32,000 nt of DNA from Mucisphaera calidilacus (GTDB lineage: Bacteria; Planctomycetota; Phycisphaerae; Phycisphaerales; Phycisphaeraceae): NCBI RefSeq assembly GCF_007748075.1, contig NZ_CP036280.1, positions 450,001 to 482,000 of the forward strand, written 5' to 3'. The notes beneath the pieces were generated by a model. It saw only the letters and a list, made by a program, of their open reading frames with translations. It was not told the DNA's origin and searched no databases. The stretch's first letter is position 1; each line of letters starts with the position of its first letter. The translations under genes and the position numbers were made by a program. Shown here one piece after another: positions 6,844 to 21,524 of the stretch.

Positions 6844-7485
6844 ATGTTGAAGAGAATCCTTGCCCCCTCATTGTTGGCCGCATTGGCCATCGTGCCCGTT
6901 GCGTCGGGCGCGGCACTCTACTCGTTTGAAGACCTCCCCGTCGGCAGTCCGGCCGCCGGCAACGGCCTGATTGTTGACAGCGGCGACGGTATCACCGATG
7001 GCGTTCAGGCGCTGAGACTGTCGGACTCGTCCGGCTGGTACGACAAGCTCGGCCACGTCCGGCTCGATGGCCTGATCGATCCCGCTACGCCGGTGAGCAT
7101 GTTCACGGTCGACTGGTATTTCGAGGCGGGACCGAACAGTGCCGGCAGCTACAACGGCCTGACAGCGGCCTTCTTCAACCAGACCACGAGCACCTTCCTC
7201 CAGCTCAACAACGTGACGGGGCAGTACATCGGGTCGGACGCCGGCGCAAACGGCGCATACACCCCGGTCTACAACCTGAGCGCTGCCGAGCAGAGCTTCC
7301 TCATGGGGGCCTTGCAATCGGGCGAGGCGATCGCCTTCGAGCTGTATTCCAACAAAGACGGCAGCGGCGTGAACGGGACCTACACCGTCGACAACATCCG
7401 GTTTGACGGCGCCCTGGTGCCGACTCCTACCGCTGCGTCGATGACGCTGCTGGGGCTTGCCGGGATGGCGCTTCGCCGCCGCTGA
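6844..7485 (+). CDS. secreted PEP-CTERM-type (PTP variant) anchored protein carrying one copy of an unassigned ~170-aa lectin-like domain
   Basis: AGGAGGAG RBS at 6830-6837 and ATG at 6844. Signal peptide [24 protein letters not shown]-terminus [22 protein letters not shown] (P-x-P, hydrophobic helix, Arg cluster). The domain is paralogous to two domains in the 8697-10067 protein. Confidence 0.8.
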
Positions 7486-7500
7486 ACACGTTCTTCTCCC

Positions 7501-7530
7501 CCGCCTGCCGGATCAGCGTCCGGCGGGCGG
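7501..7530 (+). terminator. strong GC-rich hairpin (12-bp stem with one G-U, 6-nt loop) downstream of the PEP-CTERM gene; possible terminator, attenuator or RNA stabiliser without a U-tract
   Basis: CCGCCTGCCGGA tcagcg TCCGGCGGGCGG read directly, 16 nt after the stop codon. No T-run follows, so this is not a canonical intrinsic terminator. Confidence 0.35.
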
Positions 7531-7604
7531 CTTCGAGGTCCTGTCGAGGCACGGGACGCCACGAGCCACACAAGCGCCGCATGCGGCGCCGGACGGAGTC
7601 TGAC

Positions 7605-8510
7605 ATGAAAACCACAGGTCGTGCCTTCACGCTCATCGAGCTTCTTGTCGTTATCTCGATCATCGCGTTGCTGATCGGCATCCTCCTGCCGGCACTCGGC
7701 GCGGCACGCGAGACGGCTCGAAGGGCGGCGTGCATGAGCAACGTCCGCCAGCTCAACGTCGGCTGCATGACCTACGCCGCCGACCACGATGACTACGTCC
7801 CCTACAACTCGATGGGCGGTGCCTGGGGCCTGACCACCGGCGAGATGCTGACGTTCGACGACCTGATCGCCGAGTACATCGGCAACGCCATGCCCGAGAA
7901 CATCAAGAGGCTGCCGAACCTCAGCTTCGATCCGGCACAGCAGTATCAGGCGCCGATCCTCGCCTGCCCGTCGGACGACATCGAGCGGTACCCCGACAGC
8001 AGCCGCGACTACGGCATCCGCAGCTACCTGATGGTGACCGGCACGGAGGACCTCGAATCAACGAGCACCACGCACAAGGTGTTCCTCGGCGTGGCGGGCA
8101 GCCTGTGGGGACCGAACACCCCGGGCCTGCGTGTCTGGCAGGGCAACCTCTCGTCCAACATCCAGTCTCCTTCCAACACCCTCATGCTCAGCGAGCAGCA
8201 CAACGACCTCAACGTGCCCGGCGGAAACGAGGGCGACTCCAACTGGCTGCGCAACCCGAGCTGGCAGTACTTTAACCGCCGACTCTCCACCTCGGGGCCC
8301 TCGAACCCCGTGGAGCACCTGCCTCACGGTGGCGGGAACATCGGCGATCCGCTCGATCAGGTCAACGGCAACTTCGCCTATGCCTACGCCGATGGCCACG
8401 CCAAGATGCAGGGCGCCCGCGAGACCTACGACGACGAGGCGATGAAAGACACGCCCATCCTGCCCTACACCAACGTCGGCGGCGACTGGACCCGCAAGAC
8501 AGGGGACTAA
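7605..8510 (+). CDS. DUF1559-type protein with a prepilin-type N-terminal cleavage/methylation domain (pseudopilin-like), copy 1
   Basis: MKTTGRA|[43 protein letters not shown], with Glu at +5. C-terminal ...[12 protein letters not shown] motif is typical of the family. GGAG RBS at 7595-7598. Confidence 0.9.
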
Positions 8511-8696
8511 CAAAGATGGCGTAAAGCCATGTCAGTAGTGTTTGATTTGGGTACGCGTTGCCGGTCGTGCGGTTCTCAAGACCTCGGGCCCGCATGAGAT
8601 TCAGAGCGGGGCGCGTCCGTCGGACGCGTCTCAAGAAACAACCGATTCACCGTTGGCCGCGTATCGGCCGACAGGCTCTTCACCAGGAGGATTCAC

Positions 8697-10067
8697 ATGG
8701 TCTGCCGTATCAGTCTGACAACCGGAATTGTGGCTCTCGCGTTCAGTGTCCCTGCTCAAGCGGGCCTGCTCTATTCTTTCGAGGACGTCGCCGTCGGAGA
8801 GATGCTCAATGGCGATGGCGTGATCGTGGACACCGGAAGCGGCATCACGGATGGCGTACAGGCCCTGCGGCTGGCCGGGTCGGCCGGCGGCTACGACAAG
8901 CTGGGGCACATCGTCTTGAATGATCTCGTCGACACCAGTGTTGATATCACGACGTTCCAGGCCGACTGGGCGTTCGATGCGGTACCGGGCAGCGCGGGCG
9001 GCTACAACGGCTTGACGCTCGCCATGTACAACCAGACCACCGCGACCTTCCGCCAGATCGGTGGCGGCGGGAGTGACAGCAACACCGTTGGCGAATACAT
9101 CGGATCGAGTAGTTCCACAACCACCACCGTCAGCTACAACCTCGGCCCCAACGACCAGGCGTTCCTCAACAGCGGCCTGGACGCCGGAGACCCCATCGAA
9201 CTCGGCTTCTACTCAAACAAAGCCATCGGAGTCGTCGGCGACTACACCATCGACAACCTGCAGTTCAACGGCTCACTCGTCGGCGGCCCGGGCCAGCCGG
9301 TCCTGCTGGGCTCGTTCGAGGACGCGACCCCGGGCGATCAGCTCGGAGGCACCGGTTTTGTGGTCGATTCAGGACCGGGTATCACCGAAGGCCTTCAGGC
9401 GCTGCGTGGCACACTCACGGCAGACAACAGCTACCAGAAGATCGGTGAGATCAGCCTGCCGACACCTACCAATGACGTCTACAGCTCATTCAGCGTCGAC
9501 TGGTATCACGAGTTCGCCGGCTTCAGCTTTGGTTATCTCGAACTCATCGCGGCCATCTTCACCGAAGACGGCGGCTTCACCCAGCTCTCCGGGGCCAAGA
9601 CCGTTGGCAATCCCGACGCATTCATCGGCTTCGAGGACAGCCAGTTCACGGTGGAGTACGAGCTGACCGAGGCGCAGGCGGCGCAGCTGTCGGCGGCTCA
9701 GTCGGTCGGTCTCGGAGCCACGATCGAGTTCTTCGCGAACAAGGCAACAGACCGAGGCGGCATCCTGACCGTCGACAACGTCATCGCCACGCTCGAGGAA
9801 GTCGACCTGATCGAGGGTGACATCAATGGCGACGGCTCGGTCGATCTGCTCGACCTTTCGATCCTGGCCACGAACTTCCAGGGCACGGACACCCCTTACG
9901 CACGCGAAGAGGGCGACCTCACCGGCGACGGGCTGGTTGACCTGCTCGACCTCTCCGTGCTGGCGTCGAACTTCAACGCAACAGCGGTTCCCGAGCCGGC
10001 CGGGCTGGCCCTGCTCGGCCTGACGGGCGTGCTGATCAGTCAGCGGCGCAACGGCATCGGGGCGTAA
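8697..10067 (+). CDS. secreted protein: two tandem copies of the unassigned lectin-like domain, then a dockerin-type repeat pair, then a PEP-CTERM anchor
   Basis: AGGAGGA RBS and ATG at 8697. Signal peptide ...ALAFSVPAQAG. Domains span about 8766-9272 and 9300-9800. The repeats are DINGDGSVDLLDLSILATNF and DLTGDGLVDLLDLSVLASNF. C-terminus VPEPAGLALLGLTGVLISQRRNG. Confidence 0.85.
   Translation: MVCRISLTTGIVALAFSVPAQAGLLYSFEDVAVGEMLNGDGVIVDTGSGITDGVQALRLAGSAGGYDKLGHIVLNDLVDTSVDITTFQADWAFDAVPGSAGGYNGLTLAMYNQTTATFRQIGGGGSDSNTVGEYIGSSSSTTTTVSYNLGPNDQAFLNSGLDAGDPIELGFYSNKAIGVVGDYTIDNLQFNGSLVGGPGQPVLLGSFEDATPGDQLGGTGFVVDSGPGITEGLQALRGTLTADNSYQKIGEISLPTPTNDVYSSFSVDWYHEFAGFSFGYLELIAAIFTEDGGFTQLSGAKTVGNPDAFIGFEDSQFTVEYELTEAQAAQLSAAQSVGLGATIEFFANKATDRGGILTVDNVIATLEEVDLIEGDINGDGSVDLLDLSILATNFQGTDTPYAREEGDLTGDGLVDLLDLSVLASNFNATAVPEPAGLALLGLTGVLISQRRNGIGA
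9819..9986 (+). repeat. coding segment for a pair of dockerin-type (EF-hand-like Ca-binding) repeats; nucleotide-level relatives at 17383-17547
   Basis: The D-x-N/T-x-D-G-x-V-D-LLDLS-x-LA-x-NF motif occurs twice. It shares the GACCTGCTCGACCTCTC core (9939-9955) with 17410-17430 and 17497-17517. Confidence 0.75.
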
Positions 10068-10085
10068 CGTGATCCTCCGCGGTGA

Positions 10086-10117: not shown

Positions 10118-10159
10118 AACCTCTTCATTCAGGCACAACGAACAGGAGCGATCAACGCG

Positions 10160-12010
10160 ATGGCGATCACGGCATCTCGTGGGGTAGTCACAACGTGGTT
10201 GTTGGTGGTGATGGCAGTCTGCCTGTCGGCGGTGCAGGGCGTGGAGGCCCAACCCAACCCGCTGCCCGATGACCTCATCCAACAGCTCGGGCCCGACGCC
10301 CGACTGATCATCCACGGCAACCGGCCCGACGCGTTCAACGGCCCCGGCGACACCGACCACGCCCGCATGGAAACCGTCCGCGTCGACGGCCAGCCCTTAC
10401 ACACCGCCGCACGCATCCACGTCCTCCGCAAGACCGACCCGGTCTGGGACGCCTCGCTGACCTCGCCATGGACCACCGCACCGATCAGGAAGGGCGACAC
10501 CCTCTTCGGCTACATCGACATCCGCGCCGAATCCGAGAAAGAGTCCGGCGGGGGCCAGTTCACCGGGTGGCTCCAGGGCAACCGCTCCGGATGGTCCGGA
10601 CTCAGACAGGTCGACGGTGCCCCGGGCGGCCAATGGTCACGACGCTACTTCACGACCGTCGCCACCCGCGACTACGACAAGGGTGAAGTCAACTTTGTCC
10701 TCCACCTCGGCATCATCCCCCAGACTGTCGACGTCGCCAATATCCTCGTCTGGAACCTCGGGCCCGACGCCGATATCGCCAGCCTACCGAGCAGCCGGCT
10801 GACCTACGAGGGCCAGGAACCCGACGCCCTCTGGCGGGTCGAAGCGATGCAACGCATTGATCGCTACCGCAAGTCGGACCTGGAGGTACGCGTGGTCGAT
10901 GCGCGCGGACGCGGCGTGGCAGGAGCGGAGGTCGAGGTGGCACTCGAACGACACGCCTTCGGCTTCGGCACCTTCATCGGCAACGGTCCCGTGCTTCAGG
11001 ACAGCCCCGACGGCGAACGCTTCCGCAACACCCTCCATCGCTACTTCAACCGTATCACCTGCCCCGCCTACAACGCCCAGACATGGGGCTGGCCAAACCC
11101 GGCCACCGCCAACAACTACATCAGGCAGATCGAGTGGTCCCGGCGGGACGGCTACACGACCAAGGCACACCCCGTGCTCTGGTCACGCTTCGACTGGTCA
11201 CCCGACGCCTGGGTCGCCCTCCGTGGCGACCCGCCAGCCCTCCGGCGAGCCATCGAGGACTACATCCGCAAGACAATGACCCTGCTGAGCGAACTCGGCG
11301 TTGAAGAGGTGGATTTCTTCAACGAGCCCGACCAGTTCGACGAGTACAACCAGGTCATCCGCGCCCAAAACCTCACGGCAGACTGGTTCAAGCTCGCCCA
11401 CGAGACCGCACCCAACATCCGCCTCGGCATCAACGAAAAACGCATCCTCTCCGCAGGCGGACGCGACACCGACAAGCACGACAACTACTTCGCCACCATC
11501 CAGCACCTCCTCGACGAGGGCGTGCCGCTGCGCGCCATCGGCTTTCAGGGGCACATGGGCGAGGACTTCACCCCGCCGACACGGCTCTGGACGATCCTCG
11601 ACCGGTTCGCCGCCTTCGGCATCCCCCTCCACGTCACCGAGTTCGACGTCAACACCGAAGACGAGCAAACCCAGGCCGACTACACACGCGACTTCCTCCT
11701 CGCCATGATGGCCCACCCCGCCGTCGACTCCGTCACCCTCTGGGGATTCTGGGGCGGCGATATGTGGATCCCCCAGGCCGCACTCTGGCAGAAAAACTGG
11801 CAGCCGCGCCCGAACGGCGAGGCTTACATCGACTTGATGACCAAGACACTGAACACCCACGAGCGTCTGCGCACGGACACGTCGGGGCGTGTGGCGGCAC
11901 GCGCGTTCAAGGGAGACTACGTGGTGCGTGTCCGTGTCGACGAGAAGCGTGGCGAGGTCCGGGTGCGGCTGGGTGACGAGCCGGGTGTCGTGCAGGTGAC
12001 GGTCCGTTAG
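10160..12010 (+). CDS. secreted GH10 family glycoside hydrolase (endo-beta-1,4-xylanase-like) with an N-terminal CBM4/9/22-like domain
   Basis: AGGAG RBS and ATG at 10160. Signal peptide MAITASRGVVTTWLLVVMAVCLSAVQGVEA. The acid/base motif FFNEP and the nucleophile motif LHVTEFDV are about 105 aa apart, as in GH10. IGFQGHM motif also present. Confidence 0.82.
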   Translation: MAITASRGVVTTWLLVVMAVCLSAVQGVEAQPNPLPDDLIQQLGPDARLIIHGNRPDAFNGPGDTDHARMETVRVDGQPLHTAARIHVLRKTDPVWDASLTSPWTTAPIRKGDTLFGYIDIRAESEKESGGGQFTGWLQGNRSGWSGLRQVDGAPGGQWSRRYFTTVATRDYDKGEVNFVLHLGIIPQTVDVANILVWNLGPDADIASLPSSRLTYEGQEPDALWRVEAMQRIDRYRKSDLEVRVVDARGRGVAGAEVEVALERHAFGFGTFIGNGPVLQDSPDGERFRNTLHRYFNRITCPAYNAQTWGWPNPATANNYIRQIEWSRRDGYTTKAHPVLWSRFDWSPDAWVALRGDPPALRRAIEDYIRKTMTLLSELGVEEVDFFNEPDQFDEYNQVIRAQNLTADWFKLAHETAPNIRLGINEKRILSAGGRDTDKHDNYFATIQHLLDEGVPLRAIGFQGHMGEDFTPPTRLWTILDRFAAFGIPLHVTEFDVNTEDEQTQADYTRDFLLAMMAHPAVDSVTLWGFWGGDMWIPQAALWQKNWQPRPNGEAYIDLMTKTLNTHERLRTDTSGRVAARAFKGDYVVRVRVDEKRGEVRVRLGDEPGVVQVTVR

Positions 12011-12070: not shown

Positions 12071-13753
12071 ATGACAGCTTACGACTTACCCCAATCGGTC
12101 CGTCCAGAACCTGTGGCTCCCCGAACTGCGGTGCTGGTCGCCAACGGCGATCTGCGTGCGTCGGCGAACGCGACGTGCTGGCCGGCGCAGCAGGCGATGG
12201 AAAAGGAGGCCGCTGAGGCGTTCGGTTCACTGGGCTGGAAACTCGAGCGCGCGCACGGCGAGGTCGATTCACCCGAGGGCCCACACGGCTTCATCGACAG
12301 CCAGAAGCGTGGCCGTGAGGTCTTCGCAGACGTTGATCCAGCGGCGCCGCTGGTAGTCGCGGAGGCGGTCTGGCAGTACAGCCACCACCTGCTCCCCGGG
12401 CTGCTGCGGCACACCGGCCCGATCCTCATCCTGGCCAACTGGTCGGGCACATGGCCCGGACTGGTCGGGGCGTTGAACCTGCGCGGATCGCTGACCAAGG
12501 CCGGGCGCGACCACGCGATCCTGTGGGGTGAAGACTTTGCGGACCCCGCCTTCCGAGCAAAGCTCAAGGCGTGGTGCGAGCGCGGGACGATCGAGCACGA
12601 CACCTCGCACGTGGCGAAACTGACGCCGGACACGCTGCCGCCAGCAGAGCGTGAACTGGGCGCTGCGCTGGCCGAACAGCTTCAGAACCAGCCCGCGATC
12701 CTCGGCGTCTTCGACGAGGGCTGCATGGGCATGTTCAACGCCATCATCCCGGATCACCTGCTCAACCCCACGGGCGTCTACAAGGAACGACTGTCGCAGT
12801 CGGCGCTCTACTACGCCATGACACAGGTCTCGGATGACGAAGCCAAGGCCGTGCGTGCCTGGTACGGCAACGCCGGGATCAGCTTCCAGATCGGCACCTC
12901 CGAAGAGAGCGACCTGACCGAGTCTCAGATCCTCGATCAGTGCCGGATGTACATCGCCGCGGTCCGACTGGCCGACGAGTTCGGCTGCGACGCGATCGGC
13001 ATCCAGTACCAGCAGGGTTTGAAAGATCTTGCCCCCGCGAGTGACCTGGTGGAAGGAACGCTCAACTGCAGCATTCGGCCGCCGGTGCGTGACGACGCGG
13101 GCCGGGTGATCCGTGAGGGCGAGGCCATCACCCACTTCAACGAGGTCGACGAGTGCGCCGGGCTGGACGGCCTGATCACACATCACGTCTGGCGTGCCAT
13201 GGGCATGCAGCCGGACAACACCCTGCACGACCTGCGCTGGGGTGATCCCGACCGCAGCGGCACGACCGACGACTACGTGTGGGTCTTCGAGATCTCGGGC
13301 AGCGTTCCGCCGACGCACTTCGCCAACGGCTGGGCCGACGCCACCAGCGAACGTCAGCCGCCGATGTACTTCCGGCTGGGAGGCGGGACGATCAAGGGCA
13401 TCTCCAGACCGGGCGAGTGCGTCTGGTCGCGTGTCTATATTCAGGACGGCCGCCTGCACATGGACCTCGGCCGCAGCAAAGCCATCGAACTACCACTGGC
13501 GGAGACGCAGCGACGCTGGGACAGCACCACCAGCCAGTGGCCGATCATGCATGGCGTCACCTACGGCGTCTCTCGCGACCAGATGATGGCCCGCCACCAG
13601 AGCAATCACATCCAACTCGTCTATGCCGATGATGCCGAGTCGGCCAACCGGGCCACAGCGGCGAAGGCCGCGATGGCCCACCACATGGGCATCGAGGTGC
13701 ACCTCTGCGGCACCGATCACACCGGCAAGCCCTTGGCCGAAGCGCTGGTGTGA
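12071..13753 (+). CDS. L-fucose isomerase (FucI) family sugar isomerase, divergent member
   Basis: Length of about 560 aa. By-eye collinearity with E. coli FucI: [17 protein letters not shown] vs IWGFNGTERPGAVYLAA; FNEVDE vs ATENDS; LHDLRWGD vs FADVRTYW; YFRLGGGT vs YFRGGGYS; QSNHIQLVY vs GANHGVLTI. Confidence 0.7.
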
Positions 13754-14628: not shown

Positions 14629-14835
14629 GACAGATCTCCGTCGAAACGTTTGAGGTTGGCGGGACATTACGCAACGACGTGGGTGATGACAAGCGTGCGA
14701 TTGTTAAAACGCTTCTTGCACCTTTCTCACGGTTTCCTCATGTATCGCGCTCGCTGATTTATGGCGTAATGCTACTGAGGCCCGCGCGGTGTGCGGGTCA
14801 CGCAAGAAGAGAACGTCATCAAACAGGAGAGCATC

Positions 14836-17619
14836 ATGAGAAGCGATCGTCAGCAGACACGTCGGATGTTGCAGGGGGCTCTGGCCCTCGGCTTGCTTGG
14901 GGCCGCAGTGACCAGCGCTCACGCCGATCTCACGTCGGATTACCAGAACCTGATCAACAGCGATTCGGGGCTGATCAACTACTGGACCTTTGAAGATGTC
15001 GCTCCGGGCGGCAGTTTCACCACCGTTGCCGACGTTGTCGGCGGCCAGCACGGCACGGTCATCGGCACCGTGGATGCGCAGGCCGGACTCGTCGGCACCG
15101 CGGGCTTTTTCCCGGGCGACACAGACGGAGACATGATCAATAACGTCGTCGAGATCGTCGGCTCCGACACCAATGGATTGTTTGATCTTCAGGGTTCCTT
15201 CACGATCGAGGCGCTGGTCAAGACGGATCAGCTCTCGGCAGACAACTGGTCGGGCATTGTCTCGAAGGGTGATAGCGCGTGGCGTATCGCGCGCAACCGT
15301 GGTGACGACTTCATCCAGGGCGGAGCGAACGGGCTGGCCGGCGGCGTCACCAACGGCTTTCACGATCTGGATAACAGCATCTGGCACTACGTCGCACTGA
15401 GCTACGACCAGACCACGGGCGTGCAGACGGTCTACTTCGATGACTCGGCAACCTCCAGCACAACAACCCCGGGCAACAGCGTCGATATCAACGCTTTCAC
15501 GGTGATGATCGGCGGCAACGCCGAGAAGCCCGAGCGCGAGTGGCTCGGCCTGATCGATGAAGTGGCCATCTACAACAACTCACTCTCCCAGGCCGATGTC
15601 AACAGCCGCCTCACCATCCTCGACGCCGATCCGGGCGCGATCGACGCGGTCAAAATCGCCTACTGGACGGGCGCGCAGGCGTCGGGCTCTTTCGGGGCAG
15701 GCGCGGGCTGGGACAATGGCAACCAGGCGCCGCAAACACTCGACGCCGTCATCATCGGCCAGAACGGCGACGTCTCGTTCAACCAGACCCTCGAGATCGA
15801 CTCACTCGAGGTCGGCACGACACAGGACATCCTCAGCAACCCGAGCAGCGGCGAGGGCAAGCTGACCATCAACGGCGGTGAGTTGTACGTCAGCGGTGGC
15901 GCAGACGGCACGGTCGGTCGTGGCACGAAGGGTGAAGTCCTCCAGACCGGCGGCAAGCTGCACTTCGCCGGTGAAGATTTCGAGATCGGTGAAGACCCCA
16001 ACGGCGACGGCACCTACACCATGACCGGTGGCATCCTGCAGATCGGCTACTGGGTCGAGGCACCTCAGTTCGACAACGGTTGGTGGATGACCAACGACAG
16101 CAGCGCCGGCGACGACCTCGCCATCGGACGTGACCGGACCGTCGACGAGCAGGGTAACTCCAGCGACGTCGCGAGCGGCGTGCTGGATATGTCTGGTGAT
16201 TCCGAGGTTCGCGTCGCAAACGACGTCTTCCTCGACGTTGGTTATGCCGAGGTTCACATGACCGACAACGCAACCATGCGCGTCGGTGACGATCTGCGTG
16301 CGGCTTCCGCCGACCGCGGTGAAGGCTTCATGGACATCCGTGGCAACGCCCTGGTCCAGGTCGAGGGCCGCTTCTCGATCGCTGACTCGAACCTCTCGAC
16401 AATGGACGTCACCGTCGCAGGTGACGCGACCGTTGAGGTCGGCATGTACCTGGTCGTTTCGGGTCAGGACAGCCTGAACGAGGCAGGCGTCGGCACCCTG
16501 ACCATCGAGGACAACGCCACCATCAATGTCGGCTCGATCATCTACCGTGGTGATACCAACGGCGAGCCCGGACTGCCGACCGAAGAGACGCCCGCTGCGG
16601 ACCGCGTGGCGGACGAACACGCCTTCTTTGTGGGCACCGGCAACAGCAGCCAGGGCAGCGGCGCGGTTTACCAGAACGGTGCCGGCAGCCTCATGACCAT
16701 CGGGCGGATCGCCAACATCGGCTTCCGCACGATCGGCGACTACACCATCACGGCCGGCACCTTCGAAGTGCGTGGCGACGCCCCGATCAGCGGAGTCGAT
16801 TTCGAAACGGGCCTCAGCGACGACGACGGATTTGTCGACGGCGGCGGCGACGTGATCATCGGCGTGCAGGGTGGCTCCGTCGGCAGCTTCACCTACGAGG
16901 GTGGAACGGTCGATGTCTTCCGCGATTTCACCGTCGGTCTCGGCGGCGAAGGCACGCTCAAGATCGTCTCGGGCGAATCGGGCGACGCGGACGCCACCGG
17001 TTCCTTCACCATCGGCGGCGACCTGGGCTTCGGCGGGGACTTCGCCGGATCCGAGGGCGGCACGGGCTCGCTCGTCGCCGTGCTCAACGGCGGTGAGTTC
17101 ACCACCATCGATGTCACCGGCTCTAACCCCGAGACGGTTGGCGATCTCTATATCTACGACGGCGCGACGTTTGACCTCGAACTCGAAGGCGTTGCCGAGG
17201 TCGGCCGCTACCTGCTCATCAGCTACGCCGGCGACCGCTACGCCTCAGACACCTCTGCAGCCGACACCGGCGAGTTCATCGAGACCGACGTTCTCCAGAC
17301 GCTAGGCATCGAGTACTACCTCGATTACTCAGTGGCCGGTGAGGTCGCGCTGGTGATCGAGTCCGTAGACCAGTTGCTCCTCGATGGCGACTTCAACTTC
17401 GATGGAAACGTCGACCTGCTCGACCTCTCGATCCTCGCCGCCAACTTCAACCAGTCGGCCGGCGTGTCGGGTGGTGACGCCAACGGCGACGGGATCGTCG
17501 ACCTGCTCGACCTCTCGCTGCTCGCAAGCAACTTCGGCTCGTCCTCGGTCCCCGAACCCGCGGCCGCCGTGCTTGGCCTCCTCGGCTTGGGCGTCGTGAC
17601 ACGCCGCCGTTCTGCCTGA
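14836..17619 (+). CDS. large secreted surface protein: LamG (concanavalin-A-like) domain, long beta-helix-like repeat region, dockerin-type repeat pair, PEP-CTERM anchor
   Basis: AGGAG RBS and ATG at 14836. Signal peptide ...LGLLGAAVTSAHA. LamG_3-type segments: LINYWTFEDV, FTIEALVK, WHYVALSYD, LIDEVAIYNNSLSQADV. Periodic (G/D)(D/N)(A/S)x-h-xV units. Dockerin-type repeats DFNFDGNVDLLDLSILAANF and DANGDGIVDLLDLSLLASNF. C-terminus VPEPAAAVLGLLGLGVVTRRRSA. Confidence 0.88.
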   Translation: MRSDRQQTRRMLQGALALGLLGAAVTSAHADLTSDYQNLINSDSGLINYWTFEDVAPGGSFTTVADVVGGQHGTVIGTVDAQAGLVGTAGFFPGDTDGDMINNVVEIVGSDTNGLFDLQGSFTIEALVKTDQLSADNWSGIVSKGDSAWRIARNRGDDFIQGGANGLAGGVTNGFHDLDNSIWHYVALSYDQTTGVQTVYFDDSATSSTTTPGNSVDINAFTVMIGGNAEKPEREWLGLIDEVAIYNNSLSQADVNSRLTILDADPGAIDAVKIAYWTGAQASGSFGAGAGWDNGNQAPQTLDAVIIGQNGDVSFNQTLEIDSLEVGTTQDILSNPSSGEGKLTINGGELYVSGGADGTVGRGTKGEVLQTGGKLHFAGEDFEIGEDPNGDGTYTMTGGILQIGYWVEAPQFDNGWWMTNDSSAGDDLAIGRDRTVDEQGNSSDVASGVLDMSGDSEVRVANDVFLDVGYAEVHMTDNATMRVGDDLRAASADRGEGFMDIRGNALVQVEGRFSIADSNLSTMDVTVAGDATVEVGMYLVVSGQDSLNEAGVGTLTIEDNATINVGSIIYRGDTNGEPGLPTEETPAADRVADEHAFFVGTGNSSQGSGAVYQNGAGSLMTIGRIANIGFRTIGDYTITAGTFEVRGDAPISGVDFETGLSDDDGFVDGGGDVIIGVQGGSVGSFTYEGGTVDVFRDFTVGLGGEGTLKIVSGESGDADATGSFTIGGDLGFGGDFAGSEGGTGSLVAVLNGGEFTTIDVTGSNPETVGDLYIYDGATFDLELEGVAEVGRYLLISYAGDRYASDTSAADTGEFIETDVLQTLGIEYYLDYSVAGEVALVIESVDQLLLDGDFNFDGNVDLLDLSILAANFNQSAGVSGGDANGDGIVDLLDLSLLASNFGSSSVPEPAAAVLGLLGLGVVTRRRSA
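17383..17547 (+). repeat. coding segment for a pair of dockerin-type repeats (partner of 9819-9986)
   Basis: The exact 21-nt string GTCGACCTGCTCGACCTCTCG occurs at 17410-17430 and again at 17497-17517. Confidence 0.75.
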
Positions 17620-17639
17620 TGTCTCGCCCCTCCTGTGTT

Positions 17640-17680
17640 CCGGCCGGCGAGAGCCGGTCGGGACGCTTATTTCTCTTTGT
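17640..17680 (+). terminator. intrinsic-terminator-like hairpin (9-bp GC stem with one G-U, GAGA tetraloop) followed by a T-rich tract
   Basis: CCGGCCGGC gaga GCCGGTCGG (17640-17661), then gacgCTTATTTCTCTTTGT. Sits 21 nt after the stop of the large surface-protein gene and before the DUF1559 gene. Confidence 0.55.
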
Positions 17681-17692
17681 CAGGAAGGACCC

Positions 17693-18547
17693 ATGAACGA
17701 ACACGGACGACAACAGGCGTTCACACTCATCGAGTTACTGGTGGTGATCTCCATCCTCGCGCTGCTGATCGGGCTGCTGCTGCCGGCGCTGGGCAAGGCA
17801 CGCGCACGAGCGCAGGATCTGCAGTGTGTGACGGGCATTCGGAGCCTCGGCCAGTCCCTGATGGTCTACACCATGGATTACGACGGATATTTCGGCAGGT
17901 ATGACCACCTGCTCAATGGCAACTGGAACAATGAACCCGTAGGCGGTTCGCGTCGCAACCCCGGTGCTCTGCCCATCGAGAACAGCGTGCTCATCCCTTA
18001 CCTTGGCATCGACCGCGAGCAGGCCTATGTCTGCCCCGTCTTCGAACGCTGGGTGATGGACGAATACGACGACATGATTCCCGATGAGGGGGTTTCGTAC
18101 ACTTACACCTACAACGCCGTTATATGCTGGTTGACGGCGATCGAGAGCAGCGGACAACCCAGGTACAAGCCTTACGATAACCGCCCCGTGAAGGTGGACA
18201 TGGTGGCCAACGCGAGCGCCATGGCGATGTTTGTCGAGGAGAACCCGTGGGGCCATCCACGCTACGGACCGACGCCGATGAACGACGGGCGGTTCGTGCC
18301 CGACCGTTGGCCGAATCAGGACACCCTCGCAACGTTTCACCAGGCAGACATGCCCTCTCGATACAGTTCGGGGCCCTATCCCTACAAATACGACGCTTCA
18401 GACGAAGGCGGCGTTCTGAATACGGGCATCTCGAACGTTGTCTTCGTCGACGGCCACGTCAGTCAGCACAAGACCACGGAGAGCGAGTATGTTGTCTATG
18501 GGGGCAACAAGAAGTACGCGAACGTGCCGGAATACTGGCCGAACTGA
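17693..18547 (+). CDS. DUF1559-type prepilin-like protein, copy 2
   Basis: MNEHGRQQA|[36 protein letters not shown]; C-terminal NVVFVDGHVSQHK motif. Confidence 0.9.
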   Translation: MNEHGRQQAFTLIELLVVISILALLIGLLLPALGKARARAQDLQCVTGIRSLGQSLMVYTMDYDGYFGRYDHLLNGNWNNEPVGGSRRNPGALPIENSVLIPYLGIDREQAYVCPVFERWVMDEYDDMIPDEGVSYTYTYNAVICWLTAIESSGQPRYKPYDNRPVKVDMVANASAMAMFVEENPWGHPRYGPTPMNDGRFVPDRWPNQDTLATFHQADMPSRYSSGPYPYKYDASDEGGVLNTGISNVVFVDGHVSQHKTTESEYVVYGGNKKYANVPEYWPN

Positions 18548-18588
18548 ACCGGTGGTTGAAGGGATTCTGATTGGACCAAGAGCGTGCA

Positions 18589-19104
18589 ATGCGACAGTTT
18601 CTGGGGCAGCGGACGGCGCTATATGCATATATCCGATCGGTACTCCGTGACGATCACCGTGCCGAAGACGTCCTGCAGAATGTCTGCCTCGTCCTCTTGC
18701 GCAAGCACGATGAGATTCAGTCGGAGGATCACATGCGTAAATGGCTGCGGACGACGGCGCGTTACGAATCACTACGCGTGATCCGGGAAGGCAAAACGCA
18801 GTCAACAGGCCTGAGTGATGAGGTACTCAACGCGCTCGAGTCAGAGTGGGATACGGCCTTCGAGGTCGAGCGTGGCGAGACGATCGAAGCGCTCAAGGCC
18901 TGTATCGAGCGACTGACGCCTTATGCAAAACAACTGATAACGCTGCGTTATCACGAAGGGCTGACAGGCAAGGACCTGGCCGATCGGGTGGGTCGCAGGA
19001 TCAACACGATTTACGTAGCACTGACACGAGCCCATCGTCACCTGTCCGAATGCGTGACCTATTCGTTGCGCGAATCGACAGCTACCGGGCGTGCTCATGA
19101 GTAA
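18589..19104 (+). CDS. ECF-type sigma-70 family RNA polymerase sigma factor
   Basis: Region 2: AEDVLQNVCLVLLRK...WLRTTARYESLRV. Region 4 HTH: LTPYAKQLITLRYHEGLTGKDLADRVGRRINTIYVALTRAHRHL. Start is either the ATG at 18589 or the TTG at 18571. Confidence 0.88.
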   Translation: MRQFLGQRTALYAYIRSVLRDDHRAEDVLQNVCLVLLRKHDEIQSEDHMRKWLRTTARYESLRVIREGKTQSTGLSDEVLNALESEWDTAFEVERGETIEALKACIERLTPYAKQLITLRYHEGLTGKDLADRVGRRINTIYVALTRAHRHLSECVTYSLRESTATGRAHE

Positions 19105-20650
19105 GAAAGGCGCCGCATTGACGCCCGAGTCCGATGCCTTTGTCGAACGTTCTCTGCGTGTGCTCGATGGCATTGCGCGAGACTCCGAGCGTGCTCGGCT
19201 CGAGCAGGAACTGCTCACCTCGGCCGAACGCAGGACGCTGTTCGTGCGACTGAACCTGCATCGGACAGAAGTCATCGCCGCCTGCGGCAGGCTCGATGCC
19301 GAGCGATCACAAGCCGAGAAACTCAAGGGGGACGTGCTCGCACGCATCGGCTGGGGTGGGGCCGGATCACTGGCCGCGATACTACTGCTCGGACTGTGGC
19401 TCGGATGGCTGCTGACGGGGAACGAGGGGCCGAAGCGTGAAATCACGCAGTGGACACAGGGGCAACTGGCCGCACTGACACTGACCGTCGACGACAGCGG
19501 CCTGATGAATGCATCGACACGATTCTTCCGGTCGGGGCAAACCCTGCGCCTCGACCAAGGAGTGGCACGGCTTGAGACGCCAGCAGGTGTCGAGATGATC
19601 GTCGATGGCCCGGCAACGATAGGCTTTGAGCGTGCCCGCAGCGTCCGGCTGAATGCAGGCCGGATGGTCGCCTGGGTACCCGACGGCGCAGAAGGCTTCG
19701 CTATCGAGGTCAAGGGAGGACGCGTGGTGGACCTCGGCACACGATTTGGTGTTGATGTTGATGCCGTCACCGGTGAGATCCTGACACACGTCTTTGACGG
19801 ACGTGTGTGCGTGGAGTCGGGTGCCTCCGAGATCGAGCTGACAGGCGGTCAGGAGGTCAGGTTGATGCCCGGCGGTCTGTTTACGGGCATTTCATCCGGC
19901 AGCGGGCTGGTGGGATTTGTGCGCGAGGTCCCGCGCACACAACTCGCCGCCGTCATTGCGGGTTTCGCTCCACTGCTTTATTACAGCTTCGACGATCAGG
20001 GCAAGAGTGGCTCCTTGAACATGTTCGATGCCGACCGATCGCCGCTGGCGTTCGGCACGGGTGGGCGTCGTGATGAGCGTGAGGGCAGGACGTTCCTGAG
20101 ACTCAGCGGTCAGCCTGAAGGGTGCTACGCAAAGGGTGTTCTCAGTCCATGGTCACGGGACGCTTCAGGCTACACGGTGCTGCTGCGTGTACGGCCGATC
20201 GAGCCGGGCAGCCAGAACATCCTCACCGCAACAAACACGCTCGGCCCGGATCGCCTGTTCGGACCGCAGCTGCGCATCCGTCCCGACGGGCAGTTGGAAC
20301 ACGTCACCGTAGTTCGTGGCCCCGCGGGACCGGCTGGCGAAGTCGTGCAGTCCTCGGACATCAGGATCTCACAAGGCCAATGGGTGACGCTGGCGATCAC
20401 GGCCGCGAGCGAGGGCATAATGCGACTCTACGTCGATGGTCAGGAGGCAGCCTCGCCGGTCGATCTGGACGCCTCGCTCTATCTCGGTTACCCGGATCTG
20501 GTGGTGGGGGGGTCCGCGGGGCGTGTACGGCGTGACGTTATGCACCACGTCGCGGGTTTCTCCGGCGAGGTGGATGATCTTGTGGTGATCGCCAGGCAGC
20601 TCACAGACGCCGATCTTGCCAAGATTCACGGCTATATGAATCCGGGATGA
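19097..20650 (+). CDS. membrane-spanning anti-sigma factor: N-terminal anti-sigma region, one TM helix, FecR domain, C-terminal LamG domain
   Basis: The ATG at 19097 overlaps the sigma stop (ATGAGTAA, 8-nt overlap). TM helix SLAAILLLGLWLGWLLTG. FecR-like segment RLNAGRMVAWVPDGAEGFAIEVKGGRVVDLGTRFGVDV. LamG_3-like C-terminus: LLYYSFDD, GYTVLLRVRP, GQWVTLAITA, FSGEVDDLVVIARQLTDADL. Confidence 0.85.
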   Translation: MSKKGAALTPESDAFVERSLRVLDGIARDSERARLEQELLTSAERRTLFVRLNLHRTEVIAACGRLDAERSQAEKLKGDVLARIGWGGAGSLAAILLLGLWLGWLLTGNEGPKREITQWTQGQLAALTLTVDDSGLMNASTRFFRSGQTLRLDQGVARLETPAGVEMIVDGPATIGFERARSVRLNAGRMVAWVPDGAEGFAIEVKGGRVVDLGTRFGVDVDAVTGEILTHVFDGRVCVESGASEIELTGGQEVRLMPGGLFTGISSGSGLVGFVREVPRTQLAAVIAGFAPLLYYSFDDQGKSGSLNMFDADRSPLAFGTGGRRDEREGRTFLRLSGQPEGCYAKGVLSPWSRDASGYTVLLRVRPIEPGSQNILTATNTLGPDRLFGPQLRIRPDGQLEHVTVVRGPAGPAGEVVQSSDIRISQGQWVTLAITAASEGIMRLYVDGQEAASPVDLDASLYLGYPDLVVGGSAGRVRRDVMHHVAGFSGEVDDLVVIARQLTDADLAKIHGYMNPG

Positions 20651-20732
20651 GAAATCAGTGAACACGATCGGGATCGGAGGAGTGTTGGTTACACTCGCCT
20701 CTGTGTAGTCGAACGGCCCTTAGGGAACGACG

Positions 20733-21524
20733 ATGGTCACTGGGCGTGTAAATCGCGGTCTGTCCATGCTGGAACTGCTGACGGTGCTCGCGATTTCCAC
20801 CGTGATGGTGGGGCTCTTGGTGCCCACGCTCTCTTGGTCCCGATCGGTTGCTCGGGAAACGCTCTGCGCAAGCCACGCCCGACAGTTGCATCTGCTGATG
20901 GTAAGTTTTGCTCAGGACGATGATTACAGCCGCTACGCGCCGACCATCGAGGTCGGCCACGACGACCTGAGTTATCTCTGGACCGGAGGCTATCTCCACA
21001 CGACCGATATCACCGTATGCCCAGCCACGCTGAACCAGGTTACGGTACAACGCGACGATTACGAAGAACTCCAGCGAGCATCACGCCATGCCTATGATGA
21101 AGAGGGTGGACACAGCTACGAAACCTTTCATCATGTGAGCCCGGGTGAGTTCCCCGGCGGGCTGGTGATCAATCAGCACCGGCAGTTGTCACTCAAGGAC
21201 CCCATGCGTCCCGCCGACACCTTCATCGTTCTCGACAGCGACAACGACCCCGACGCGGGTGGTATGAATGACGGGTTGTTCGGCTACAACAACCTGCCCG
21301 ATGCGGCGACAAACAACCACGGCGAGCGTGGCCTGAACGTTGCTTTTCTCGACGGTCGCATCCGCTTCGTCACCGCGTCGCAGTGGGTCGAGGTCATGCT
21401 CCGATCAGCCCACCTCAACGCCGACTCGATCGACCTCGTCCGCGCTCGTGCACTGTATGAACCCAGAATTCAGTGGGGACTGCGACAGGATGGCAATGAC
21501 GGTCTGCGTTACTGGCTGGAATGA
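20733..21524 (+). CDS. divergent prepilin-like / DUF1559-related protein, copy 3 (degenerate N-terminal motif)
   Basis: MVTGRVNRG|LSMLELLTVLAISTVMVGLLVPTL keeps Gly at -1 and Glu at +5, but F-T-L-I is replaced by L-S-M-L. C-terminal HGERGLNVAFLDGRIRFV resembles the family H-x(9-10)-DG segment. Confidence 0.65.
   Translation: MVTGRVNRGLSMLELLTVLAISTVMVGLLVPTLSWSRSVARETLCASHARQLHLLMVSFAQDDDYSRYAPTIEVGHDDLSYLWTGGYLHTTDITVCPATLNQVTVQRDDYEELQRASRHAYDEEGGHSYETFHHVSPGEFPGGLVINQHRQLSLKDPMRPADTFIVLDSDNDPDAGGMNDGLFGYNNLPDAATNNHGERGLNVAFLDGRIRFVTASQWVEVMLRSAHLNADSIDLVRARALYEPRIQWGLRQDGNDGLRYWLE

What the first reader, a model, noticed from the sequence alone, without database searches (positions are those of the whole stretch)
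6844..21524. Candidate undescribed glycan capture/sensing locus: PEP-CTERM lectin-like proteins paired with DUF1559 pilin-like genes around an ECF sigma / FecR-LamG switch
A gene syntax recurs on the + strand: a secreted lectin-like protein with a PEP-CTERM sorting signal is followed by a DUF1559 prepilin-like gene. It appears as 6844-7485 then 7605-8510, and as 14836-17619 then 17693-18547. A third, degenerate pilin-like gene (20733-21524) directly follows an ECF sigma / FecR-LamG anti-sigma pair. Interleaved are a secreted CBM-GH10, a FucI-family isomerase and a secreted PLC-like phosphodiesterase. The neighbouring block encodes a sugar symporter, an esterase, GH130, GHL6, a sulfatase and a LacI regulator. 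DUF1559 is a very large planctomycetal paralogue family with no experimentally assigned function (established). I hypothesise a surface apparatus analogous in logic to Bacteroidota PULs, which combine binding proteins with trans-envelope ECF signalling. Here it would be built from exosortase-sorted lectins and type-IV-pilin-like subunits. That interpretation is inference only. No exosortase, prepilin peptidase or pilus ATPase is in the window.
Basis: partly seen in the sequence, partly recalled or inferred. Interest (0 to 1): 0.75.

Follow-up and report, generated by a model that had tools for sequence, protein, structure and literature searches.

The report
Conserved pilin-like / PEP-CTERM envelope gene modules
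In a marine planctomycete, secreted sugar-binding-type proteins with a PEP-CTERM sorting tail sit next to pilin-like genes, and one such set, with its own sigma/anti-sigma switch and a phosphodiesterase, is kept together in several related genomes, which makes it a concrete but still untested candidate for how these bacteria sense and grab polymers.

Summary
The window comes from Mucisphaera calidilacus (Phycisphaerae).

There are two separable units, not one apparatus.

Unit B (13774-21524) runs: a PLC-like phosphodiesterase, a LamG-dockerin-PEP-CTERM protein, a prepilin, an ECF sigma factor, a FecR-LamG anti-sigma factor, and a second prepilin.

Unit B recurs with all or part of its genes, in permuted order and with unrelated flanks, in four other Phycisphaerae loci. 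The core of unit A recurs in two. So the pairing is not chance.

It is also not a general rule. Across 79 PVC loci, neighbours of pilin-like genes are heterogeneous, and only about 3% are PEP-CTERM proteins.

A stable stem-loop follows each PEP-CTERM gene, so co-transcription with the pilin-like gene is uncertain.

The function is inferred. My reading is that the prepilins are module-specific accessory subunits for PEP-CTERM surface proteins, under ECF control. Unit B looks linked to a phosphodiester substrate rather than to CAZymes.

I found no description of this arrangement in the literature I searched. Interest is moderate.

The parts
5664..6722 (+). LacI-family regulator at the head of unit A. 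The ORF opens at 5616; the likely start is 5664, by alignment to the L001 orthologue.
   Evidence: Pfam LacI + Peripla_BP_3. 64% identical to the L001 orthologue in the same position.
6844..7485 (+). P1: a 213-aa secreted single-domain protein with a CBM-like beta-sandwich and a PEP-CTERM-like tail (VPTP...RRR).
   Evidence: No Pfam hit. AF2 model pLDDT 76; best PDB folds are CBM22, CBM28, CBM16 and CBM15 at E about 3e-4. The family has 61 representatives, which sources name 'PEP-CTERM sorting domain-containing protein [Planctomycetota]'.
7503..7529 (+). GC-rich stem-loop just after P1, with no U-tract.
   Evidence: strand folding on 7486-7604. A stem-loop also follows the L001 orthologue.
7605..8510 (+). 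P2: a prepilin-type DUF1559 protein with leader ...GR-A|FTLIELLVV.
   Evidence: PF07963 at 22.8 bits and PF07596 at 48.5 bits. N-terminal match to GspG/ComGC. 57% identical orthologue after the P1 orthologue in L001.
8697..10067 (+). P3: two tandem P1-type domains + dockerin repeats (9816-10000) + PEP-CTERM (VPEP...RR).
   Evidence: Pfam Dockerin_1 at 34.8 bits. TIGR02595 at 15.2 bits against a cut-off of 16. Alignment A7. DNA repeats D1-D3.
10160..12010 (+). Secreted GH10 glycoside hydrolase. The N-terminal ~240 aa are unassigned.
   Evidence: PF00331 at 104 bits. Best PDB match is 7d88 beta-xylanase at 3.5e-30. No CBM found.
12071..13753 (+). Cytoplasmic FucI-like sugar isomerase.
   Evidence: Weak hits to Fucose_iso_N1 and Fucose_iso_C. 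60% identical orthologue next to an FGGY kinase in L003. No PDB relative by sequence.
13774..14667 (-). Secreted PLC-like/GDPD_2-like phosphodiesterase, divergent from P7. Conserved member of unit B.
   Evidence: PF13653 at 26.1 bits against a cut-off of 27. Orthologues 48-49% identical beside P8 orthologues in L083, L084 and L091, with true GDPD genes or fusions there. Invariant HSHNDY...EAD...H.
14836..17619 (+). P7: secreted LamG_3 + ~580-aa unassigned region with no Pfam match + dockerin repeats (17386-17561) + PEP-CTERM.
   Evidence: Pfam. The unassigned middle region 15640-17380 gave no Pfam match. Orthologues 41-53% identical in L083, L084 and L093.
17635..17666 (+). 14-bp stem-loop followed by a U-rich tract between P7 and P8 (terminator or attenuator).
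   Evidence: Free energy -33 kcal/mol, z = -2.9. A canonical terminator sits at the same place in L083 (z = -5.8) and a stem-loop in L084 (z = -2.3; 7 of 200 shuffles fold at least as well, so weaker).
17693..18547 (+). P8: prepilin-type protein with leader QQ-A|[10 protein letters not shown] divergent DUF1559/H-X9-DG relative.
   Evidence: PF07963 at 31 bits. AF2 pLDDT 89.8 with a 51-residue alpha-1 helix plus a small sheet. No PDB fold hit. hhalign to DUF1559 gives 88% probability over the C-terminal NxxFxDGH region only. Orthologues.
18571..19104 (+). ECF sigma factor.
   Evidence: Sigma70_r2 + r4_2. 42-43% identical orthologues in L084 and L093.
19091..20650 (+). FecR-type anti-sigma factor with one TM segment and a C-terminal LamG sensor domain. 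It overlaps the sigma gene by 14 nt.
   Evidence: PF04773 at 26.5 bits and PF13385 at 46.8 bits. Orthologues 30-32% identical in L084 and L093.
20733..21524 (+). P11: divergent prepilin-type protein (leader NR-G|LSMLELL) directly after the anti-sigma gene.
   Evidence: N_methyl at 15.5 bits, below cut-off. Orthologues 44-52% identical directly after FecR-LamG in L084 and L093-96. Distant homologues carry PF07596.

Best explanation
The span holds two independent, vertically conserved envelope modules of a Phycisphaerae planctomycete.

Each module combines Sec-exported, PEP-CTERM-sorted binding proteins (CBM-like or LamG) with a dedicated prepilin-type protein of the DUF1559/H-X9-DG superfamily.
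- Unit A is a LacI-controlled hemicellulose-type (GH10) utilisation cluster.
- Unit B is a self-contained ECF-sigma / FecR-LamG anti-sigma unit. Its likely regulon is the LamG-dockerin-PEP-CTERM protein, two non-interchangeable prepilins and a secreted PLC-like phosphodiesterase. I read it as sensing and attacking a phosphodiester-bearing polymer or lipid head-group.

Shown here: gene content, domain make-up, the leader motifs, and conservation of the sets.

Inferred mechanism:
1. The prepilins are cleaved by a prepilin peptidase encoded elsewhere.
2. They sit in the inner membrane or assemble into a short pseudopilus.
3. There they act as low-abundance, module-specific accessory subunits that help export or display the abundantly expressed neighbouring PEP-CTERM protein.
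4. In the case of P11, the prepilin couples that surface complex to the periplasmic LamG/FecR domain of the anti-sigma factor. This would take the place that a TonB-dependent transducer has in classical FecIR signalling.
For: The three window prepilins share a processing motif ([GA]|[FL]xxxE, P22), a conserved Cys, a CP motif and a C-terminal DG.

Unit B is conserved as a set, with permuted order and unrelated flanks:
- L084: ECF, FecR-LamG, P11, P7, P8, GDPD::PLC.
- L093-96: ECF, FecR-LamG, P11, P7.
- P. corsica (L083): ECF, anti-sigma, P7, P8, GDPD, PLC.
- L091: P8, PLC.

Orthologues are 41-57% identical. The P8 and P11 paralogues resemble each other only in the leader, which argues for distinct, retained roles.

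Unit A's core recurs in L001. In L003 it recurs with a non-orthologous DUF1559 gene.

Independent examples with unrelated PEP-CTERM proteins occur in L017, L025 and L069. The adjacency permutation test gives p = 0.018.

Two upstream neighbours of pilin-like genes in the survey are T2SS platform proteins (GspF).

A stem-loop after each PEP-CTERM gene fits a high-to-low expression ratio.

P1 models as a CBM-like fold.
Against: - No experiment of any kind supports this, and no interaction could be modelled.
- The stem-loops, one of them a canonical terminator, may mean the PEP-CTERM genes are single-gene operons, as in Proteobacteria (PMC1569441), and are not co-expressed with the prepilins.
- PVC-wide, the prepilin family has very mixed neighbours. 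A Mucisphaera sp. paralogue sits among housekeeping genes.
- The P8-like subgroup in L085, L090 and L092 pairs with a ~900-aa protein that has no PEP-CTERM.
- P8's globular domain has no solved-structure relative, so even its pilin fold rests on secondary-structure topology.
- The P. corsica sigma/anti-sigma pair is barely related or unrelated (26% identity for the sigma; no FecR or LamG hit).
- The phosphodiesterase assignment is weak.
Confidence: 0.4

Rival explanations
1. The whole span 6844-21524 is one PUL-like glycan capture and sensing apparatus. Type-IV-like pili built from DUF1559 subunits carry exosortase-sorted lectins, fish for xylan or sulfated glycans, and report to the ECF/FecR-LamG switch, which controls the flanking CAZymes.
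For: - Lectin-type folds: LamG and the CBM-like P1 domain.
- GH10, GHL6, GH130 and a sulfatase lie nearby.
- 5 of 106 upstream neighbours of pilin-like genes PVC-wide are LacI sugar regulators.
- There is a published 'fishing-rod' hypothesis, and the uptake players are still unknown (PMC12078418, PMC12673574).
- Fimbriae were observed on strain Pan265 (PMC8882080).
Against: - Units A and B separate in other genomes.
- Unit B travels with PLC-like/GDPD genes, and in L084 with an alkaline-phosphatase fragment, rather than with CAZymes.
- Unit A has its own LacI or AraC regulator.
- Crateriform structures were not observed in this strain.
- No pilus machinery is in the window.
Confidence: 0.2
2. 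The prepilin-type proteins do not form filaments. The class-III leader is only an inner-membrane anchor, and the globular DUF1559-type domain is a periplasmic ligand- or partner-binding protein, as its Pfam name SBP_bac_10 suggests. It would hand breakdown products to transporters or to the FecR-LamG sensor.
For: - The family has dozens of paralogues per genome: 68-91 in Planctomycetia (PMC10632474, PMC8567305).
- Tuwongella members fractionate with membranes.
- P11 always follows the anti-sigma gene.
- The globular domains are large (~220 aa), diverse, and unlike solved pilins.
- The conserved His/Asp/Glu residues could form a ligand or metal site.
Against: - The leader and alpha-1 helix keep every assembly-related feature of T4a pilins and GspG: E5, P22 and a ~50-residue helix.
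- Some family members sit beside GspF.
- No similarity to periplasmic binding-protein folds was found.
Confidence: 0.2
3. There is no functional coupling. Prepilin-type and PEP-CTERM genes are both abundant in these genomes, and adjacency reflects chance plus shared descent. The PEP-CTERM genes are independent single-gene operons.
For: - Terminator-like stem-loops follow each PEP-CTERM gene.
- Haft 2006 found most PEP-CTERM genes to be single-gene operons.
- Neighbourhoods are heterogeneous PVC-wide.
- L001 is a close relative (GH130 88% identical), so its synteny is weak evidence.
- The permutation p is only 0.018 and is not independent.
Against: - Unit B keeps the same genes across different genera. 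M. calidilacus is 63.9% GC and P. corsica 48.7% GC. Protein identity is only 41-54%, the order is permuted and the flanks are unrelated.
- That pattern is characteristic of functionally linked genes.
- In L003 a non-orthologous DUF1559 gene fills the slot.
Confidence: 0.12

Closest known systems
FecI/FecR-type cell-surface signalling (ECF sigma, FecR anti-sigma, TonB-dependent transducer), including the Bacteroidota PUL variant with SusC-like transducers
   Same: An ECF sigma gene overlaps a single-pass anti-sigma gene with a periplasmic FecR domain, followed directly by envelope genes that are the likely regulon.
   Different: No TonB-dependent transducer or SusC/SusD is present. The anti-sigma factor carries its own C-terminal LamG domain. 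The gene that follows it is a prepilin-type protein. The ECF classification paper gives no such context.
Clostridial SigI/RsgI system, in which anti-sigma factors with extracellular CBM sensors control dockerin-bearing cellulosomal proteins (my own knowledge, not tested here)
   Same: An anti-sigma factor is fused to a carbohydrate-binding-type sensor domain, and its regulon includes dockerin-carrying secreted proteins.
   Different: The sigma family and the anti-sigma fold differ. The organism is Gram-negative. The dockerin repeats sit immediately before a PEP-CTERM signal. No cohesin was found in the window.
Type IV pilus minor-pilin/PilY1 tip complexes and T2SS pseudopilus tip complexes (my own knowledge)
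   Same: Prepilin-type proteins are encoded beside a large non-pilin adhesin or cargo protein that they present or export. The leader and alpha-1 features are shared.
   Different: There is a single prepilin per partner rather than a 4-gene minor-pilin set. The partner is exosortase-sorted. No ATPase, platform or secretin is nearby. The globular domain has no relative among solved pilins.
PEP-CTERM/exosortase (EpsH) protein sorting (Haft 2006, PMC1569441)
   Same: Signal peptide, C-terminal P-E-P + TM + Arg cluster, several copies per locus, and a stem-loop after the gene that fits single-gene transcription.
   Different: These are regulated here by LacI or ECF rather than by sigma-54 PrsK/PrsR. 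They carry a dockerin-PEP-CTERM cassette and show recurrent adjacency to prepilin genes, neither of which that paper describes.
DUF1559 / SBP_bac_10 / H-X9-DG prepilin paralogue families of PVC bacteria, including the Verru_Chthon cassettes
   Same: P2 is a clear member. P8 and P11 are divergent relatives. The function is unknown, and Tuwongella members were already noted to be 'often flanked by genes with signal peptides'.
   Different: Here specific subfamilies are fixed in a conserved regulatory and enzymatic module. Hits to the Verru_Chthon cassette models cover only the leader.

Membership tests
Prepilin-type (class III signal peptide) proteins, PF07963/TIGR02532 | N-terminal [GA]|[FLM]xxxE leader followed by a hydrophobic alpha-1 helix | tested here: met
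   P2 scores 22.8 bits and P8 31 bits, both above the 21.2 cut-off. P11 scores 15.5 bits, below cut-off, but the G|LSMLE motif is readable and aligned orthologues have A|FTLLE. The P8 model has a helix at residues 12-62.
DUF1559 (PF07596, SBP_bac_10) | Match to the PF07596 domain after the leader | tested here: inconclusive
   P2 is met (48.5 bits against 23.3). P8 and P11 have no direct hit. Support is by transitivity: P0005 (54% identical to P8) and P0134/P0135 (35-36% identical to P11) carry PF07596. hhalign gives P8 88% probability over the last ~41 columns only, and P11 22%.
H-X9-DG prepilin-associated domain (TIGR04294) | C-terminal H-X9-DG motif above the curated score | tested here: not met
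   P8 scores 16.4 bits against a cut-off of 19. P2 and P11 give no hit at E <= 0.1. A conserved NxxFxDG[HR] is present in all three, and P11 has H-X10-DG.
PEP-CTERM sorting signal (TIGR02595/PF07589) | C-terminal P-E-P, TM helix and basic cluster, plus an N-terminal signal peptide | tested here: inconclusive
   The motif is visible in P3 and P7 (VPEP...RR). P1 has VPTP. Scores sit just under the cut-offs: P7 18.2 against 20.7, P3 15.2 against 16, and P1 matches only NF038120 weakly. Orthologues of P1 carry canonical VPEP/IPEP and PF07589.
PEP-CTERM/exosortase system | An EpsH-type exosortase in the same genome | not testable with these tools
   None of the large window ORFs scanned matched an exosortase family. 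The rest of genome CP036280 could not be fetched, because look-ups by exact protein failed.
FecIR cell-surface signalling | ECF sigma plus FecR-domain anti-sigma | tested here: met
   Sigma70_r2/r4_2, and FecR at 26.5 bits against a cut-off of 24.
FecIR cell-surface signalling / Bacteroidota PUL | TonB-dependent transducer (or a SusC/SusD pair) encoded with the pair | tested here: not met
   No TonB_dep_Rec, Plug or SusD hit in any large ORF of the window scanned, nor among the called genes of L083, L084 and L093.
Type IV pilus / T2SS gene cluster | Assembly ATPase, platform protein, secretin and prepilin peptidase | tested here: not met
   Absent from the window ORFs scanned. Not testable genome-wide. 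GspF is adjacent to 2 of 106 family members elsewhere.
Cellulosome-type dockerin/cohesin | Dockerin type I repeats and a cohesin partner | tested here: inconclusive
   Dockerin_1 is met in P3 (34.8 bits) and P7 (25.4 bits). The PDB hit 2y3n matches the dockerin. No cohesin is in the window, and the genome could not be tested.
GH10 | PF00331 catalytic domain | tested here: met
   104 bits. 7d88 beta-xylanase at 3.5e-30. Substrate not tested.
GDPD / PLC-like phosphodiesterase | GDPD catalytic domain with His/His and Glu/Asp metal ligands | tested here: inconclusive
   PF13653 scores 26.1 bits against a cut-off of 27, over the last 30 aa only. A profile search of the PDB gives 3no3 GDPD at E = 0.036. 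HSHNDY/EAD/H are invariant. Bona fide GDPD genes are adjacent or fused in L083 and L084.

The most novel reading that the evidence does not exclude
The expanded DUF1559/H-X9-DG prepilin families of PVC bacteria would be cognate trans-envelope adaptors. Each paralogue links one exosortase-sorted surface binding protein to a pseudopilus/T4P-type machine and, where a FecR-LamG anti-sigma factor is present, relays substrate capture to an ECF sigma factor. This would be a TonB-independent counterpart of SusC/FecA-type capture and signalling. It would explain why these bacteria carry 50-100 pilin-like paralogues, and it would name the missing players of planctomycetal polymer uptake.
Probability: 0.12. 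Interest if true: 0.85.

Novelty: new variant of a known kind. Interest (0 to 1): 0.55.

Why it matters
DUF1559-type prepilins are among the largest paralogue families in Planctomycetota, and no function has been assigned to them. Reviews from 2025 still call the players of polymer uptake unknown.

A compact module conserved across genera ties two specific prepilins to a PEP-CTERM LamG protein, a sigma/anti-sigma switch and an enzyme. It is present in two cultured strains, M. calidilacus Pan265 and P. corsica KS4. That gives a defined, small target for transcriptomics, proteomics and interaction tests.

It would also be the first genetic link between the exosortase and prepilin sorting pathways.

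Tried and rejected
- Fetching the source genome by exact protein failed twice, so no genome-wide count in M. calidilacus was possible.
- The first 5-sequence pilin alignment was too divergent to use as a locus search.
It returned a PVC-wide sample rather than Mucisphaera paralogues.
- The metagenome scan with the P8 globular domain found a single locus, which looks like a near-duplicate of L085 (similar contig length and coordinates; not compared directly).
- Foldseek of the confident P8 model against the PDB gave nothing better than E = 2.
- Sequence searches of the PDB for the PLC-like, FucI-like and P7 proteins were uninformative.
- The LamG domains of the anti-sigma factor and of P7 are not close paralogues (23% identity, E = 0.006). 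I dropped the idea that sensor and effector share one recently duplicated binding module.
- I inspected the intergenic regions by eye for a shared ECF-type promoter, but with three genomes I could not define one.
- Rfam and tRNA scans were empty.
- I considered and rejected membership in the Verru_Chthon cassette families, because the hits cover the leader only. I also rejected filing this as a Bacteroidota-type PUL or a classical FecIRA system, because there is no transducer.

Full report
**Source and gene map**

The 213-aa product of 6844-7485 is 100% identical to a protein of Mucisphaera calidilacus on a 3,486,541-bp contig. This is strain Pan265, class Phycisphaerae, genome CP036280.

ORF listing, Pfam and NCBIfam give the following map.
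- 26-337 (+): C-terminal end of an MFS_2 transporter.
- 303-1049 (+): weak alpha/beta-hydrolase.
- 1043-2596 (-): sulfatase.
- 2484-3422 (-): GH130.
- 3444-5597 (-): GHL6.
- 5616/5664-6722 (+): LacI.
- 6844-7485 (+): P1.
- 7605-8510 (+): P2.
- 8697-10067 (+): P3.
- 10160-12010 (+): GH10.
- 12071-13753 (+): FucI-like isomerase.
- 13774-14667 (-): PLC/GDPD_2-like phosphodiesterase.
- 14836-17619 (+): P7.
- 17693-18547 (+): P8.
- 18571-19104 (+): ECF sigma factor.
- 19091-20650 (+): FecR + LamG anti-sigma factor.
- 20733-21524 (+): P11.
- Beyond that: unrelated genes (ergothioneine EgtD/EgtB-like, an NAD-binding protein, RND efflux).

**Check of the observation**

1. Only P2 hits DUF1559 (PF07596, 48.5 bits). 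P8 has a strong prepilin leader (31 bits) but no PF07596 hit. P11 has a sub-threshold leader (15.5 bits) with a readable G|LSMLE motif.
2. The PEP-CTERM tails of P7 and P3 score just below the curated cut-offs, although VPEP + TM + Arg is obvious. P1 has VPTP.
3. It has two tandem copies of the P1 domain (alignment A7; 75% DNA identity) plus dockerin and PEP-CTERM. Unit A therefore reads PEP-CTERM / prepilin / PEP-CTERM.
4. No CBM is detectable on the GH10 protein.

An alignment of the three window prepilins with two relatives shows a shared leader, E5, P22, one Cys after alpha-1, a CP motif and a C-terminal DG.

P8's 54%-identical orthologue in Poriferisphaera corsica, and homologues of P11 at 35-36% identity, carry PF07963+PF07596. 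Profile-profile comparison supports homology of P8 to DUF1559 only over the C-terminal NxxFxDGH stretch (88% probability). For P11 the support is poor (22%).

I therefore call P8 and P11 divergent relatives of the DUF1559/H-X9-DG superfamily, not clear members.

**Is the adjacency more than chance?**

*Orthologous loci, unit A.*
- L001 (GCA_964544195.1) has sulfatases, GH130, GHL6, LacI, a P1 orthologue (48% identical), a P2 orthologue (57%), and a dockerin/PEP-CTERM protein.
- L003 is more distant (GHL6 31% identical, GH10 35%). It has FucI-like, FGGY, GHL6, AraC, then P1-like, a dockerin/PEP-CTERM protein, a non-orthologous DUF1559, a 154-aa lipoprotein, and GH10.

*Orthologous loci, unit B.*
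- L084: ECF (43% identical), FecR-LamG (32%), P11 orthologue (44%), P7 orthologue (53%), P8 orthologue (53%), a GDPD::PLC-like fusion (48%), and further downstream a second PLC-like gene.
- P. corsica (L083): ECF, an anti-sigma-like protein, P7 (41%), P8 (54%), GDPD, PLC-like (49%).
- L091: P8 orthologue followed by a PLC-like gene.
- L093-96: ECF (42%), FecR-LamG (30%), P11 orthologue (52%), P7 orthologue (49%) whose C-terminus is cut by an IS.

The flanks differ in every case, and gene order is cyclically permuted relative to the window. The P8 and P11 lineages resemble each other only in the leader. Both have therefore been retained as distinct components.

*Independent sample.* A leader-anchored search returned 79 loci from across the PVC group, 1.05 Mb with 114 prepilin-like genes.
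- Pfam of 106 upstream neighbours: N_methyl 12, LacI-type 5, T2SSF 2, PEP-CTERM 2.
- Pfam of 102 downstream neighbours: N_methyl 16, DUF1559 8.
- Pfam of 100 control genes 5 kb away: N_methyl 4, and neither LacI nor PEP-CTERM among the 25 families shown.

PEP-CTERM followed by a prepilin is therefore not a general rule of the family.

Looked at from the PEP-CTERM side, about 10 credible PEP-CTERM ORFs occur in these loci and 5 touch a prepilin gene. These are L017, L069, two in L025, and one divergent in L005. A slot permutation expects 1.9, giving p = 0.018. The numbers are small and not fully independent.

The partner proteins in these loci are unrelated in sequence. They are again small secreted beta-sandwich-type or dockerin-bearing proteins. 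One matches the HpiC1-like (PF22825) family just below its cut-off, and one is BNR-like.

Counter-examples exist.
- A Mucisphaera sp. paralogue sits among housekeeping genes.
- A P8-like subgroup (42-46% identical) is divergent from a ~900-aa protein without PEP-CTERM (the L085 member gives a sub-threshold Beta_helix hit) and sits beside ECF/anti-sigma arrays.

**Nature of the parts**

- **P1 domain.** The AF2 model has pLDDT 76. It is a beta-sandwich whose best PDB matches are xylan- or cellulose-binding CBMs: CBM22 (4xup/4xuo), CBM28, CBM16 and CBM15, at E about 3e-4 and TM about 0.46-0.53. This is a fold-level resemblance only.
- **P1 family.** The family is small: 61 representatives among 1.84 billion proteins. 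Most are 210-235 aa, and sources name them only as Planctomycetota PEP-CTERM proteins.
- **P8.** The model is confident (pLDDT 89.8). It has a 51-residue N-terminal helix and a small sheet. Foldseek finds no solved relative. Sequence matches to solved pilins and GspG cover the helix only.
- **P7.** LamG_3, ~580 unassigned residues with no Pfam match, two dockerin repeats, and PEP-CTERM. The dockerin + PEP-CTERM cassette is shared with P3 and with partner proteins in L001, L003 and L025.
- **PLC-like protein.** It keeps HSHNDY...EAD...H invariant. It matches GDPD models only weakly. Its assignment rests largely on its fixed company with true GDPD genes.
- **Stem-loops.** A stable stem-loop starts a few bases after the stop codon of every PEP-CTERM gene that precedes a prepilin gene. 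Examples are window 17635-17666 with a U-tract, a canonical terminator in L083, and stem-loops in L084, in window 7486-7604 and in L001.

**How it most likely works**

Shown:
- Two conserved gene sets.
- All non-regulatory products of unit B are extracytoplasmic.
- The sigma and anti-sigma genes overlap.
- P11 follows the anti-sigma gene in all three lineages that have FecR-LamG.

Inferred:
- Unit B is an ECF-controlled sense-and-respond unit. The anti-sigma factor's own LamG domain, with or without P11, detects a ligand in the periplasm.
- The regulon would be P7 (abundant, surface-sorted by exosortase), the two prepilins (lower level, read-through of the hairpin or their own promoters) and the phosphodiesterase.
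- The prepilins, after PilD-type processing, would act as module-specific accessory pseudopilin-like subunits for export, display or signal relay.
- The company of PLC-like/GDPD genes, and an alkaline-phosphatase fragment in L084, points to a phosphodiester-bearing substrate rather than a plain glycan.
- Unit A is a LacI-controlled GH10 cluster using the same design with CBM-like proteins.

I put 0.4 on this. The rivals are: one integrated PUL-like 'fishing-rod' apparatus (0.2), membrane-anchored periplasmic binding proteins with no filament (0.2), and no functional coupling (0.12).

**Comparison with what is known**

- The regulatory pair is FecIR-like but lacks the defining TonB-dependent transducer.
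- There is no SusC/SusD pair, so this is not a Bacteroidota-type PUL.
- An anti-sigma factor fused to a sugar-binding-type sensor that controls dockerin proteins is reminiscent of clostridial SigI/RsgI (my own knowledge).
- A prepilin beside a large presented protein is reminiscent of minor-pilin/PilY1 sets (my own knowledge).
- PEP-CTERM genes were described as mostly single-gene operons under sigma-54 control in Proteobacteria.
- DUF1559 remains of unknown function. Its neighbours in Tuwongella were noted to be often signal-peptide proteins.
- The pili-as-fishing-rods idea, with 'dedicated pilin-like proteins', is already published, and the players are still unknown.
- Searches for DUF1559, H-X9-DG, FecR + LamG, or prepilin + ECF contexts found no description of this module.
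- A 2024 survey states that planctomycetal CAZyme clusters are functionally uncharacterised.

**Verdict**

This is a new variant of known kinds: ECF/FecR signalling, PEP-CTERM sorting and prepilin families combined in one conserved module. It is not a demonstrated new system.

Interest is 0.55. The conservation is solid and bears on an open question, but every functional step is inference, and the association is lineage-restricted rather than a general rule.

Noticed in passing
It has two tandem copies of the P1 CBM-like domain plus dockerin repeats and a PEP-CTERM tail. Parts are 75% identical to P1 at the DNA level.
   Followed up: yes
window 20733-21524: The public annotation of this gene is a 208-aa 'hypothetical protein' covering 79% of the ORF. 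The annotated start skips the prepilin leader, so the protein is not recognised as pilin-like.
   Followed up: partly
window 17635-17666 and 7503-7529; L083 9923-9950; L084 9825-9872; L001 10656-10683: A stable stem-loop lies immediately after each PEP-CTERM gene that precedes a prepilin gene. The L083 one is a canonical terminator and the window 17635 one is followed by a U-tract. This suggests differential expression or separate transcripts.
   Followed up: partly
window 21531-24740 (- strand): An EgtD-like histidine methyltransferase (22355-23350) and an EgtB-like DinB_2 + FGE-sulfatase protein (23376-24740) suggest ergothioneine synthesis. The 275-aa protein at 21531-22358 has no Pfam match.
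   Followed up: no
L090 2556-11647: About six ECF sigma genes in a row, most followed by a candidate anti-sigma gene, sit next to a P8-like prepilin gene in a metagenomic Phycisphaerae-like contig.
   Followed up: no
L093 8492-9541: A DDE_3 transposase sits right after the P7 orthologue, which lacks its dockerin/PEP-CTERM end. An IS has apparently truncated the module there.
   Followed up: partly
survey loci L004-L082: LacI-type regulators are the immediate upstream neighbour of prepilin-like genes in 5 of 106 cases, and are absent from the 25 families shown for the 100 controls. Prepilin-like genes are often in tandem (12-16% against 4%). GspF is adjacent twice.
   Followed up: partly
P0156: A 6335-aa protein has 36 separate stretches matching positions ~117-179 of the P1-domain profile. 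This part of the fold also occurs as a repeat in a giant protein.
   Followed up: no
window 12071-13753: The FucI-like isomerase has only sub-threshold Pfam matches and no solved relative by sequence. It is 60% conserved in L003, next to an FGGY kinase. It may be an uncharacterised sugar isomerase family.
   Followed up: no
window 17693-18547 (model md8a2b66600ff): A confident model (pLDDT 89.8) of the DUF1559-like protein finds no PDB fold match better than E = 2. No experimental structure seems to represent this very large family.
   Followed up: partly
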